Shown piece after piece: positions 7,971 to 9,641 of a stretch of DNA of 19,654 bases. Under the pieces are notes generated by a model, which ran no database searches, was not told the DNA's origin, and saw only the letters and a program-made list of their open reading frames with translations. Source of the stretch: Promethearchaeota archaeon (lineage in GTDB: Archaea > Asgardarchaeota > Hermodarchaeia > Hermodarchaeales > Hermodarchaeaceae); NCBI GenBank assembly GCA_048939625.1, contig JBHLPH010000029.1, positions 1-19,654 on the forward strand, given 5' to 3'. The stretch's first letter is position 1, and every line of letters starts with the position of its first letter. The translations under genes were made by a program, and so were the position numbers.

Positions 7971-8016
7971 AAAAAATGAATGGATTCGACAACCCTACTC
8001 GCCAAAGAGGGTTGTC
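7971..8016 (-). terminator. Hairpin plus T6 tract at the 3' end of the RadA-like gene
   Basis: Perfect 9-bp inverted repeat GACAACCCT (7988-7996) / AGGGTTGTC (8008-8016) with an 11-nt loop. On the minus strand it is followed 11 nt later by TTTTTT (7971-7976). Confidence 0.5.
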
Positions 8017-8774
8017 TGATATGAGCTAAGTCTGCGTCTTGACTGCGGATTGACAGTGCTCCGTTGCATCCATGGACGGCTGGGATGCTTCTCTAATGTA
8101 AACGTGTCAGTGGTGTTCTGACGGTGATGGTGGATGAGCACGTGGAACCGATGGCGAGCCGCTTGACCGATTCGGAGGGGCGGCTTTGACTCACGCTTGG
8201 GGGCATCGGCACTAGCCACGACAGCAACCTGATGAGCAAAAGCGAGTTGTTTTATTTGTGCAGCAAGCTGGGCACGGCGAAAGACACGGGGATCGGTGAC
8301 GGAGTCCAGTGCTGCTGATGTGTATGTATCGCCTTCTTCTTCCTCTTGTACGAGGTGTGTAAGACCATTGATGAACAGAATCGGGGCATCGAACCCATGA
8401 ATCGTGTTTGGTGCTTCGCCGAGGAGTGATAACAACTGGTCTGTGGTAAAGGCACGCGCGATGTGAAGTCGTTGCAGATGAGTAGTAGGGGCTGCTGAAA
8501 GGGATGCAGTTTGGAGCTTGTTGAGGATGTTGTCTGGACGAATTTTGTTGTTGGCATCGATGACGGCGACGTGTCGGTGGGGACCATAATGCAGAAGGGC
8601 GGTAGCGATGGCTTGTTGTAGCAGGCTCGTACAGTGTGGGCTGCCAAAAATAAGGTAGCTGAGCCCGGCTTCAAAGCCGCCATCCAAGAGCTCATCGAGG
8701 AGGGGGCTGGCTGTGGGGCATTTGGTTTCTTGATGTTGTACCATTGAGAAGGCTGTCTGAAACATCCTGTTCAT
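7995..8774 (-). CDS. RadA/Rad51-like RecA-fold paralog, predicted ATPase-inactive
   Basis: Colinear with the RadA core: FQTA; PTASPLLDELLDGGFEAG; VIDANNKIRPDNI (vs YIDTEGTFRPERI); LHIARAFT; ILFINGL (vs VVDSL); VAVVAS; KHPSRP. The Walker A GKT is missing. Confidence 0.8.
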   Translation of the reverse strand: MNRMFQTAFSMVQHQETKCPTASPLLDELLDGGFEAGLSYLIFGSPHCTSLLQQAIATALLHYGPHRHVAVIDANNKIRPDNILNKLQTASLSAAPTTHLQRLHIARAFTTDQLLSLLGEAPNTIHGFDAPILFINGLTHLVQEEEEGDTYTSAALDSVTDPRVFRRAQLAAQIKQLAFAHQVAVVASADAPKRESKPPLRIGQAARHRFHVLIHHHRQNTTDTFTLEKHPSRPWMQRSTVNPQSRRRLSSYQTTLFGE

Positions 8775-8833
8775 CTTCTAAGGAATTCGTGTTAGTCTCG
8801 TGTATGGTGCGAAATCTGCTGTTGAATAGGTGA

Positions 8834-8859
8834 CAAAAACCCTCAAAAACCCGCAAACC
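8834..8859. repeat. 10-bp-period tandem repeat CAAAAACCC(T/G) x2 plus a partial copy
   Basis: CAAAAACCCT CAAAAACCCG CAAACC read directly from the sequence. Confidence 0.7.
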
Positions 8860-8860
8860 T

Positions 8861-8879
8861 ACACACTCACTGAGTGTGT
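8861..8879. promoter_or_regulatory. 19-bp palindrome, candidate transcription-factor operator
   Basis: ACACACTCA-C-TGAGTGTGT has perfect 9-bp arms and lies in a divergent intergenic region. The 1-nt spacer favours a DNA binding site over an RNA hairpin. Confidence 0.55.
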
Positions 8880-8888
8880 TTGGTTCTT

Positions 8889-9641
8889 ATGGCGTATCAT
8901 GCAAGTGCCCAATTCTATGATCTCTTTGCACAAGGTAAGGAAAAAGAAAAGGCATTTTATCGGATGCTAGCCCAAGAAGCGGGTTCTCCTGCGCTGGAAT
9001 TGGGCGTTGGGACTGGTATTTTCGCTTTTGCCTTAGCAGAGGATGGAATTACTGTAGTGGGATTGGAGCAGTCACGAGAAATGCTCCAGGAGGCACGAAA
9101 GAAACTGCAAAAAGCGCCTGCAGAAATAGCCCGTCGTCTTCTGTTTATTGCAGGGGACATTAGTAATTTTCAGCTAGACCAAAAATTCCGGATTATCTAT
9201 GTCCCATCCGGGAGTTTCCAATACCTTGTGACCCGGAAGCAGCAATTAGGCTGTTTGCGAAGTGTAAAAGCTCATCTTCACAAGGAGGGTTCTTTTGTCT
9301 TCGATGTATGGGTCGGAGAATCCGATACGAGTGGGACTTGGCGGCGCCTGGAAACTGCGGCATTACCAGAGGGTGGTGCAGTAACCCGGTCCATTTCAAC
9401 GAGGCTTGAATCTTCTAAGAAATTGATAGATACGGTTCTTCGGTTCGATATTCAGGATGAGGAAGGACGAATTTCGGAGACTTTGTTTGATTGGTCTCAG
9501 CTCGCGGTCCTTTCTGTAGAGGATGTGAAATTTTTACTAGCTGAATCGCACTTTCAGGTTGAAACGCTCTATTCTTCCTTTTCTCGAGAGCCTTGGACGC
9601 CTGAATCATCTCGGGCAATATTCGTTACAGAATCAGTTTAG
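8889..9641 (+). CDS. Class I SAM-dependent methyltransferase
   Basis: AQFYD, motif I LELGVGTG, GLEQSREML, GDI and HLHKEGSFVFD. ATG at 8889 is preferred over GTG at 8874, which lies inside the palindrome. Confidence 0.9.
   Translation: MAYHASAQFYDLFAQGKEKEKAFYRMLAQEAGSPALELGVGTGIFAFALAEDGITVVGLEQSREMLQEARKKLQKAPAEIARRLLFIAGDISNFQLDQKFRIIYVPSGSFQYLVTRKQQLGCLRSVKAHLHKEGSFVFDVWVGESDTSGTWRRLETAALPEGGAVTRSISTRLESSKKLIDTVLRFDIQDEEGRISETLFDWSQLAVLSVEDVKFLLAESHFQVETLYSSFSREPWTPESSRAIFVTESV

What the first reader, a model, noticed from the sequence alone, without database searches (positions are those of the whole stretch)
7995..8774. ATPase-dead RadA/Rad51 paralog that keeps the FxTA filament-polymerisation motif
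Seen: the full RecA-fold core is colinear with RadA, but Walker A is eroded and shortened (FGSPHCTS, no GKT), the catalytic Glu is lost (IDAN vs IDTE), Walker B has Asp->Asn (FINGL) and there is no N-terminal HhH domain. The protein nevertheless begins MFQTA (FQTA at 8751-8762), the position of the RadA/Rad51 FxxA oligomerisation motif mimicked by BRC repeats. Known analogies: inactive RecA-like ImuA, Walker-less Rad51 paralogs of the Shu complex, and inactivated RadA-like genes linked to archaeal PolB2. No polymerase is adjacent here. Inference: a non-catalytic filament cap or adaptor, possibly a two-ended RadA-to-PCNA bridge in an uncharacterised damage-tolerance system.
Basis: partly seen in the sequence, partly recalled or inferred. 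Interest (0 to 1): 0.72.

Follow-up and report, generated by a model that had tools for sequence, protein, structure and literature searches.

The report
Unlinked dead-RadA subunit of PolB2 polymerase
This Asgard (Thorarchaeota-type) gene encodes an enzymatically dead copy of the recombinase RadA that belongs to the already described "iRadA" helper of the error-prone PolB2 DNA polymerase; here it lies apart from its partner genes and keeps RadA's own docking peptide at its very first residues, which may tether the polymerase to recombination filaments.

Summary
Window 7995-8765(-) encodes a 256-aa RecA-fold protein (259 aa from an upstream ATG). It has no HhH domain, no P-loop lysine (GSPHCT), IDANN in place of IDTEG and LFxNG in place of the Walker B Asp. 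It starts M-F-Q-T-A.

The gene is not decaying: dN/dS is 0.11, there are 52 orthologues, and F, T and A of the motif are near-invariant.

It is not an uncharacterised system. In a tree it falls with the Walker-less RadA-like proteins of other Asgard lineages (SH-aLRT 98), apart from RadA. Those proteins sit in iRadA-PPB2-PolB2 operons, the published PolB2 "mutasome". In this family and in a second one labelled Thorarchaeota the gene is unlinked. PPB2 was found elsewhere in 12 of 14 congeners, and a true PolB2 in each of the three loci that reached far enough.

This assembly (87.6% complete) shows neither partner; a contig end near the expected site makes a gap likely.

The most conserved block, ARAFTTDQLLSLL, is the FxxA-pocket region. 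PolB2 probably fills it, which leaves the protein's own FQTA free for RadA. A RadA co-fold gave only weak support. The tail QTTLF is a degenerate clamp motif; a better one sits on the lineage's PolB2.

The scan reached the same reading before on another genome (e1-5600974).

The parts
7995..8765 (-). Coding sequence of the iRadA-like protein: 256 aa from the conserved ATG at 8763-8765, stop at 7995-7997. An upstream in-frame ATG at 8772-8774 would add MNR.
   Evidence: conserved start; Rad51/RadA fold; dN/dS 0.108
8751..8762 (-). F-Q-T-A, the retained RadA/Rad51 polymerisation (FxxA) motif at residues 2-5 of the mature protein. The N-terminal tail is modelled with low confidence, which fits a flexible peptide.
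   Evidence: Aligned with RadA G[FLI]ETAD. F 27/27, T 27/27, A 26/27. Present in 12/12 congeners. pLDDT 47-66 over the first 20 residues.
8628..8645 (-). Walker A remnant G44-S-P-H-C-T49: shortened by two residues, no lysine.
8547..8561 (-). I72-D-A-N-N76 in place of RadA IDTEG; the catalytic Glu is lost.
8421..8459 (-). A106-RAFTTDQLLSLL-118, the most conserved block of the family. It aligns with RAD51 YARAFNTDHQTQLL, the region that forms the FxxA-binding pocket (the pocket assignment is from my knowledge of RAD51-BRC4 and RAD51 filament structures, not computed here).
   Evidence: Alignment to RAD51. 9 of 13 positions are invariant in 32/32 sequences. A108 and F109 are invariant across all Asgard relatives.
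8334..8378 (-). Walker B remnant L133-F-I-N-G137 (Asp replaced by Asn), followed by the conserved acidic run E144-E147 where RadA has DNA-binding loop L1.
8004..8018 (-). C-terminal Q253-T-T-L-F257 on a basic tail. It is a degenerate clamp-binding-like motif: Q 28/28 and L 28/28, but no aromatic pair. It is absent from the most divergent subclade.
   Evidence: Relatives in other Asgard families end in canonical PIP-like TTLDxW/F[FL].
8830..8878 (-). Conserved upstream region. An 8-bp hairpin (8862-8878) carries compensatory changes among congeners. It is followed by a 33-nt block, GTAGGTTTGCGGGTTTTTGAGGGTTTTTGTCAC (8830-8862), which is probably the core promoter or a regulatory site of the divergent intergenic region.
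   Evidence: alignment of 13 upstream regions; unique in the genome; the fold as a whole is not significant

Best explanation
The gene encodes the iRadA subunit of the archaeal PolB2 translesion-polymerase complex. The published model of this 'mutasome' is PolB2 + iRadA + a PPB2 trimer. In this lineage the gene lies away from its partners.

Shown here:
- It is a RecA-fold core that cannot bind or hydrolyse ATP.
- It is under purifying selection.
- It belongs to the clade of Asgard proteins that sit in iRadA-PPB2-PolB2 operons.
- It co-occurs with PPB2 at family level.

Inferred:
- Its invariant ARAFTTDQLLSLL surface is the pocket that accepts the FxxA-like loop of PolB2. The lineage's PolB2 keeps a ..VFRYGG.. 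loop before H-L-D-R.
- It therefore acts as a passive scaffold of the polymerase.
- Its own N-terminal M-F-Q-T-A peptide is the ancestral RadA polymerisation motif, nearly the BRC-repeat FHTA. It remains free and plugs into the equivalent pocket of RadA, or of a second iRadA. That would dock the polymerase at the end of RadA filaments.
- The QTTLF tail is a weakened clamp-binding motif. The PCNA contact in this lineage is more probably made by PolB2's QTVLDSHI / QGVLDAYL tail.
For: Fold and dead motifs.

Selection: dN/dS 0.108 at dS 0.57; 52 orthologues at 46-98% identity.

Clade: all Walker-less Asgard proteins form one group (SH-aLRT 98) separated from RadA; the window's family is a long branch inside it.

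Context of relatives: in 10 of 10 loci sampled from families f9, f12 and f23, the relative lies next to or within 5 kb of PPB2 (MGRTVPSFRP...) and a ~800-aa PolB2 with the published HGIVDS motif.

Co-occurrence: strong hits of this family occur only in f1, f6, f9, f12, f20, f23, f28 and f30. PPB2 occurs in f1 14/18, f6 71/76, f9 59/68, f12 3/3 and f23 6/7, and in none of 20 families that lack the protein.

Same genus: PPB2 in 12/14 genomes. A 735-aa PolB2 (E 1e-130 to the Loki PolB2) lies ~6 kb from PPB2 in three of them.

Motif homology: RadA of other Asgards reads GFETAD, f6 iRadA reads GF[QR]TAD, and this family reads MF[QE]TAF, all in the same alignment columns.

Literature: PMC11791011 models PolB2 binding iRadA through a Rad51-type oligomerisation motif and reports C-terminal clamp motifs that 'shuttle' between iRadA and PolB2. 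PMC4104785 first described the linkage.

RadA contact (weak): complex prediction of own RadA with this protein scored 0.39, best of 3 controls 0.00. That mark was reached by 58 of 80 solved complexes and 2 of 110 mismatched pairs. At 0.60 or under it was reached by only 7 of those 80 and by both mismatches. Runs agree in at least 88% of contacts; partner pLDDT is at least 74. No interface was given, and solved RAD51-RAD51 and RAD51-paralogue complexes mean the pass may come from memory.
Against: No PolB2 or PPB2 gene is within 10 kb in the window or in three orthologous loci.

Neither partner was found anywhere in this assembly. Against congener G073, the orthologous site on contig C30 is contiguous without PPB2.

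No shared promoter box was found between this gene and PPB2 or PolB2 in the genus.

Binding to PolB2 was not tested here. Binding to RadA has weak support only. The family sits on a long branch (1.8 substitutions per site), so its placement inside the clade is less sure than the clade itself.
Confidence: 0.72

Rival explanations
1. A PolB2-independent RadA mediator or filament cap. The dead paralogue uses FQTA to bind the free pocket at one end of a RadA filament and its own pocket to accept RadA's (L/I)ETA. It would nucleate, stabilise or cap filaments, as RAD51 paralogue complexes, Rad55-57 or archaeal RadB/aRadC do.
For: The gene is unlinked from any polymerase in two families labelled Thorarchaeota. 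This assembly shows no PolB2 or PPB2. Both the donor motif and the pocket block are conserved. The genus RadA carries Leu/Ile instead of Phe in its own motif, so a Phe-bearing competitor could bind well. The co-fold gave a weak pass: 0.39 against controls at 0.00, with the caveats given. The top structural matches include RAD51-paralogue complexes that cap RAD51 filaments.
Against: Family-level presence tracks PPB2 almost perfectly. The protein nests with operon-encoded iRadAs. Absence of the partners from this 87.6%-complete assembly is explained by a contig end (C80) about 1.9 kb short of the place where two congeners carry PPB2. Within the family, 13 genomes have both genes, 3 have only this one, 1 has only PPB2 and 2 have neither, as expected from 72-91% completeness.
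Confidence: 0.15
2. A self-assembling inert ring or filament. Because one chain carries both the FxxA donor and the acceptor pocket, the protein polymerises head-to-tail on its own. This would be a storage or auto-inhibited form, and PolB2 would displace the neighbouring subunit's peptide.
For: Donor motif and pocket block are the two best-conserved short elements. The linker from the motif to the core is 27 residues against 29 in RadA, long enough for the RadA-type inter-subunit contact.
Against: DNA-binding loop L1 is replaced by an acidic EEEE run, so a nucleoprotein filament is unlikely. This reading can coexist with the best explanation.
Confidence: 0.08
3. A decaying, functionless RadA duplicate.
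For: All catalytic motifs are lost.
Against: dN/dS 0.108. Intact ORF in 12/12 congeners and 52 orthologues down to 46% identity, with 38 invariant columns. Relatives exist across at least eight Asgard families.
Confidence: 0.02

Closest known systems
iRadA, the inactivated RadA of the PolB2 (Dpo2) mutasome: PolB2 + iRadA + PPB2/arCOG07300 (Makarova, Krupovic & Koonin 2014, PMC4104785; Timinskas, Timinskas & Venclovas 2025, PMC11791011)
   Same: RecA/Rad51 core without the HhH domain. ATPase motifs destroyed. A conserved pocket of the Rad51 oligomerisation type. A C-terminal clamp-type tail. Same clade as operon-encoded Asgard iRadAs. Co-occurs with PPB2.
   Different: The gene is unlinked from PPB2 and PolB2 in this family and in f6. 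The paper analysed only genes found near PolB2, and no Thorarchaeota entry was found in the parts of its tables held here. The protein keeps RadA's own FxTA peptide at the extreme N-terminus, which the paper does not discuss. The tail is degenerate (QTTLF), while PolB2 of the lineage carries the PIP-like motif.
Archaeal RadA / eukaryotic RAD51
   Same: Fold, colinear core, FxxA motif at the homologous position with a similar linker length, and the pocket-forming ARAF block.
   Different: No HhH N-terminal domain, no Walker A lysine, no catalytic Glu, no Walker B Asp, and an acidic run instead of loop L1. NCBIfam RadA score is 31 bits against a cut-off of 259.
RadB (euryarchaeal-type RadA paralogue)
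   Same: A short RecA-fold paralogue without the HhH domain.
   Different: RadB keeps a P-loop. This genome has its own RadB-like gene with GPGGVGKT (L002:1465-2163). The window protein scores only E 0.0016 against the RadB profile, and it has an FxTA motif.
RAD51 paralogue complexes (BCDX2, CX3) and BRC repeats of BRCA2
   Same: They work alike in principle: RecA-fold or peptide modules that engage RAD51 through the FxxA pocket and cap or remodel filaments. They are among the top Foldseek matches. One orthologue reads FHTA, identical to BRC4 (P0028; the BRC4 sequence is from my own knowledge).
   Different: These are eukaryotic, and several paralogues keep ATPase motifs. No sequence-level orthology was shown.
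Bacterial Pol V mutasome (UmuD'2C-RecA) and ImuA
   Same: A RecA-family protein serves as a subunit of an error-prone polymerase and is bound through the filament-type contact (PMC11791011).
   Different: Pol V uses active RecA taken from a filament. Here a dedicated dead paralogue is the subunit, and any contact to the RadA filament is inferred only.

Membership tests
iRadA (PolB2 mutasome subunit) | Rad51/RadA ATPase-core fold without the N-terminal HhH domain | tested here: met
   Pfam Rad51 28.5 bits. AF2 model plus Foldseek TM 0.74 to RAD51/RadA. The protein begins at the polymerisation motif.
iRadA (PolB2 mutasome subunit) | ATP-binding and hydrolysis residues replaced | tested here: met
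   GSPHCT, IDANN and LFxNG across 32 orthologues.
iRadA (PolB2 mutasome subunit) | Gene next to PolB2 and PPB2 (arCOG07300) | tested here: not met
   The neighbours are an EamA transporter, an HhH-GPD glycosylase, a methyltransferase and an FAD oxidase, in the window and in L008, L010 and L011. The feature is met for the protein's relatives in f9, f12 and f23.
iRadA (PolB2 mutasome subunit) | PolB2 and PPB2 present in the same genome | tested here: inconclusive
   Not found in G000, which is 87.6% complete. PPB2 is present in 12/14 congeners, and PolB2 in the three loci that reach far enough. Contig C80 ends about 1.9 kb short of the expected PPB2 site.
iRadA (PolB2 mutasome subunit) | Common descent with operon-encoded iRadAs, apart from RadA | tested here: met
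   One clade, SH-aLRT 98, RadA outside it. Non-Asgard iRadAs could not be included.
iRadA (PolB2 mutasome subunit) | Binds PolB2 through the Rad51-type pocket | not tested
Indirect evidence only: the pocket block is invariant, and the lineage's PolB2 keeps the ..VFRYGG.. loop before HLDR.
iRadA (PolB2 mutasome subunit) | C-terminal PCNA-binding motif (frequent in the family, not universal) | tested here: inconclusive
   QTTLF has the Q and L but no aromatic pair. Relatives carry TTLDxW/F[FL]. PolB2 of congeners ends in QTVLDSHI / QGVLDAYL.
RadA recombinase | Walker A GxxGxGKT, Walker B Asp, catalytic Glu and HhH domain | tested here: not met
RadB | Intact P-loop and a match to the RadB equivalog profiles | tested here: not met
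   E 0.0016 (18 bits against a cut-off of 278) and no P-loop. A separate RadB-like gene exists in the genome.

The most novel reading that the evidence does not exclude
The N-terminal FxTA peptide of iRadA docks the whole PolB2 mutasome onto the exposed pocket at the end of a RadA filament. Archaeal error-prone synthesis would then be recruited or licensed by recombination filaments. This would be an archaeal counterpart of Pol V activation by RecA*, found in close relatives of eukaryotes. Alternatively, in genomes that have lost PolB2, the protein persists as a stand-alone RadA filament cap.
Probability: 0.3. Interest if true: 0.65.

Novelty: new member of a known kind. Interest (0 to 1): 0.38.

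Why it matters
It turns an apparent orphan 'dead recombinase' into a recognisable part of a published translesion-polymerase complex. It also shows that in two families labelled Thorarchaeota the three mutasome genes are scattered, so neighbourhood-based surveys miss this subunit.

The one point that goes beyond the literature read here is the strictly conserved RadA polymerisation peptide at the very N-terminus of a subunit whose own pocket is predicted to be filled by PolB2. This gives a concrete, testable route by which the polymerase could be brought to RadA filaments. If that fails, the gene is an ordinary lineage-specific member of a known family.

Tried and rejected
1. PolB2 or PPB2 in the window's own genome. 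tblastn with Loki and same-genus PolB2 and PPB2, an HMM of PPB2 over all ORFs of at least 40 aa, and the genome search all found nothing. The weak hit at C36:9338-9400 lies in a non-coding frame.

2. The 654-aa exonuclease-less PolB on contig C9 (P0086) as the missing PolB2: rejected. It matches PolB1-type profiles best (343 bits), keeps YGDTDS, is only 20-24% identical to Asgard PolB2, and has no PPB2 or iRadA beside it.

3. A shared promoter box between this gene and PPB2 or PolB2 in the genus: none found. The 20-mer of the upstream element is unique in the genome and absent from PPB2/PolB2 loci at up to 5 mismatches. No shared 6-8-mers were found either.

4. An RNA element upstream: no Rfam hit in the window. 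The fold of 8766-8900(-) is not better than shuffles (z -0.76).

5. The search for related loci with the broad alignment A3 failed because no stretch was conserved enough. With PPB2 as query it returned records with Asgard or unnamed titles (one titled Nitrosopumilaceae) among the 80 kept, so non-Asgard iRadAs could not be inspected for an N-terminal FxxA.

6. The 208-aa 'HAGNSDYI' protein (C9:9369-10004), noted by another reader as a second cryptic RadA paralogue: hhalign against the iRadA and RadA alignments gave probability 0.4, E 0.14-0.16, so it is not supported by this single-sequence test.

7. Conserved neighbours as functional partners. The HhH-GPD glycosylase and EamA synteny holds only within this family. 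f6 relatives have a different neighbour, a 552-aa Zn-ribbon protein.

Full report
**What is there.** The ORF at 7995..8774(-) is real. Twelve of twelve genomes of the same genus place a start codon directly before the Phe: ATG in ten, TTG in two. Several have no in-frame ATG further upstream.

**Homology and fold.** Similarity to Rad51/RadA is weak but significant.
- Pfam Rad51 scores 28.5 bits (cut-off 22).
- The NCBIfam RadA profile gives E 1.4e-7, far below its naming cut-off, with query residue 4 aligned to profile position 66.
- RAD51 is the best solved relative, at E 7e-4.
- An AlphaFold2 model built on 32 orthologues (pLDDT 76.8, pTM 0.78) is a RecA-fold core. It matches RAD51, RadA and RAD51-paralogue chains at TM about 0.74.
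- The first 20 residues are modelled with low confidence, which fits a flexible peptide.

**Dead but selected.** Across 32 orthologues:
- The P-loop is G-S-P-H-C-T, two residues short, with Cys in place of Lys in 28/32.
- IDANN replaces IDTEG.
- Walker B reads L-F-V-N-G.
- An invariant acidic run (EEEE) sits where RadA has DNA-binding loop L1.

There are 52 orthologues at 46-98% identity. dN/dS against the nearest species representative is 0.108 at dS 0.57. The 'decaying copy' reading is refuted.

Among the 27 sequences with a full N-terminus, F is 27/27, T 27/27 and A 26/27. The best-conserved block of the whole protein is A106-RAFTTDQLLSLL-118. It aligns with RAD51 YARAFNTDHQTQLL, the region that builds the FxxA pocket; that assignment comes from my knowledge of RAD51-BRC4 and filament structures.

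**Which family.** An exhaustive profile-free search found few close clusters. Beyond them lies a tail of ~250-aa Walker-less proteins at 25-44% identity. Many have an N-terminal F-x-T-A-D and a C-terminal TTLDxW/F[FL].

A profile of all of them was searched over 301 Asgard genomes. Strong matches (above 220 bits) occurred in eight families: f1 (the window's own), f6, f9, f12, f20, f23, f28 and f30. Elsewhere only RadA-level cross-hits appeared.

I fetched 20 kb around twenty of these genes.
- In all ten loci from f9, f12 and f23, the gene lies next to, or within 5 kb of, two partners. One is a ~90-aa gene starting MGRTVPSFRP. The other is a ~800-aa family-B polymerase with HGIVDS in place of the DxD motif.
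- This is the published iRadA-PPB2-PolB2 operon (PMC4104785; PMC11791011, which lists Lokiarchaeota and Heimdallarchaeota examples).
- In all ten loci from f6 (source names 'Candidatus Thorarchaeota') and in the window's family, no polymerase lies within 10 kb.

A maximum-likelihood tree puts all the Walker-less Asgard proteins, operonic or not, in one clade (SH-aLRT 98) separated from RadA. The window's family is a long branch within that clade.

**Partners elsewhere.** A PPB2 profile over the same 301 genomes gives f1 14/18, f6 71/76, f9 59/68, f12 3/3 and f23 6/7. It gives zero in twenty families, none of which has a strong iRadA-like hit.
- In the window's genus, PPB2 is present in 12 of 14 genomes.
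- In three of these, a 735-aa PolB2 lies about 6 kb from PPB2 on the opposite strand. It is 32-35% identical to Loki and Atabey PolB2 (E about 1e-130).
- In f6, PPB2 and PolB2 are adjacent while iRadA is tens to hundreds of kb away.

The three genes of the complex are thus scattered in these two families.

The genus PolB2 keeps a ..AVFRYGG.. loop just before H-L-D-R. This is the position where the 2025 paper places the Rad51-like beta-alpha motif that binds iRadA. The genus PolB2 also ends in QTVLDSHI or QGVLDAYL, a PIP-like tail. That agrees with the paper's observation that the clamp motif is usually on either iRadA or PolB2, not both. It also makes the QTTLF tail of the window protein look like a weakened relic: Q and L are invariant, but there is no aromatic pair.

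**This genome.** Neither PPB2 nor PolB2 was found in the 2.31-Mb, 87.6%-complete assembly.
- Compared with two congeners (G110, G114), the genes that flank PPB2 map to contigs C30 and C80. C80 ends inside a gene about 1.9 kb short of the expected PPB2 position.
- Compared with a third congener (G073), which has a different arrangement, the orthologous site on C30 is contiguous without PPB2.

An assembly gap is therefore a sufficient but unproven explanation. Within the family, 13 genomes have both genes, 3 only iRadA, 1 only PPB2 and 2 neither. That is what 72-91% completeness would produce.

The 654-aa exonuclease-less polymerase on contig C9 is PolB1-derived, not PolB2.

**The N-terminal motif.** RadA of most Asgards reads G-F-E-T-A-D. 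f6 iRadA reads G-F-[QR]-T-A-D. The window's family reads M-F-[QE]-T-A-F. Operonic Loki iRadAs read F-D-S-G-F. All lie in the same alignment columns, with a similar linker to the core.

The motif is therefore inherited from RadA and kept throughout the Asgard iRadAs. In the text read here, the 2025 paper describes iRadA only as lacking the N-terminal domain involved in oligomerisation and does not mention a retained motif. The RadA of this genus has Leu or Ile instead of Phe at that position.

If PolB2 fills iRadA's pocket, as modelled in the paper, iRadA's own peptide is free for the pocket of RadA or of another iRadA. The one co-fold allowed (own RadA with this protein, both with alignments) gave 'weak support':
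- Score 0.39; best of 3 controls 0.00.
- That mark was reached by 58 of 80 solved complexes and 2 of 110 mismatched pairs.
- At 0.60 or below it was reached by only 7 of those 80 and by both mismatches.
- Runs agree in at least 88% of contacts; partner pLDDT is at least 74.
- No interface was reported, and solved RAD51 assemblies may be remembered by the model.

The docking step remains an inference.

**Surroundings.** The synteny is FAD oxidase/CCG, (methyltransferase), this gene, EamA, and a convergent HhH-GPD glycosylase. It is conserved down to 51% identity within the family but not in f6. I therefore read it as inherited gene order, not a functional unit.

Upstream of the gene lies an 8-bp hairpin with compensatory changes, followed by a 33-nt block conserved across the genus and unique in the genome. 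I found no box shared with the PPB2 or PolB2 promoters. There is no Rfam match.

**Verdict.** The system, however, is the known PolB2 mutasome, not a new one. It is a new member of a known family, in a lineage where the genes are dispersed, with one unreported and testable feature: the N-terminal RadA docking peptide. The scan's index shows the same reading reached earlier on another genome (e1-5600974).

Noticed in passing
window 8830-8878 (- strand sense): An 8-bp hairpin (CACACTCA/TGAGTGTG) with compensatory changes in congeners, followed by a 33-nt block with two GGGTTTTTG repeats. The block is conserved across the genus and unique in the genome. It lies in the divergent intergenic region shared with the methyltransferase gene, whose real start may be the ATG at 8889 and not the GTG at 8874.
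   Followed up: partly
L001:1285-2223(+) (G000:C9:26376-27314): The genus's true RadA carries G-[L/I]-E-T-A-D instead of the G-F-E-T-A-D found in all other Asgard and archaeal RadAs aligned. The key Phe of the polymerisation motif is Leu or Ile in this lineage, while the dead paralogue keeps Phe.
   Followed up: partly
L007:5781-7745(-) (G000:C9:41780-43744): A 654-aa family-B polymerase with intact YGDTDS but no exonuclease domain. It matches PolB1-type profiles best (343 bits), ends in a QKRLLDY-like tail, and has no PPB2 or iRadA beside it. It is not PolB2.
   Followed up: partly
L065-L070, about 40-100 nt upstream of PPB2: PPB2 genes of the genus share an inverted repeat, GCAAGAA ... (about 30 nt) ... 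TTCTTGCA, just upstream of a TTTTTAGC TATA-like box. PolB2 promoters show a similar TTCTTTTGCA + TATA arrangement. This may be a regulator site. It is not present upstream of the iRadA gene.
   Followed up: partly
L070:6724-9819(+) versus L075:7597-9627(-): The 1031-aa gene beside PPB2 in congener G073 is 676 aa in this genome. Residues ~397-725 are missing from an otherwise 79-86% identical protein, which suggests an intein or insertion present in one species only.
   Followed up: no
P0056: A 4551-aa protein in the representative library matches residues 19-57 of the query (the ..LLDELLDGGFE..GLSYL.. segment) in 20 separate stretches. This is an unexplained repeat protein.
   Followed up: no
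L002:7-2163(+) (G000:C28): A RadB-like gene with an intact P-loop (GPGGVGKT; RadB profile 140 bits, below the cut-off of 172) lies directly downstream of the C-terminal part of a helicase-like ORF that I read by eye as Rad3/XPD-like (no family search was run on it).
   Followed up: no
G000:C9:9369-10004(-) (L076:6367-6993): The 208-aa protein with 'HAGNSDYI' was flagged elsewhere in the scan as a second Walker-less RadA paralogue. It shows no significant profile similarity to the iRadA or RadA alignments (hhalign probability 0.4).
   Followed up: partly
L084 (DATKYM010000073.1): A contig titled Nitrosopumilaceae carries a PPB2 that is 74% identical to the Asgard query. This is probably a mis-binned Asgard contig and not a thaumarchaeal mutasome.
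   Followed up: no
(G108, G190, G286, G103, G120, G181, G030): Several Loki- and Thor-type genomes carry two or three strong copies of the iRadA-like gene but mostly a single PPB2.
   Followed up: no
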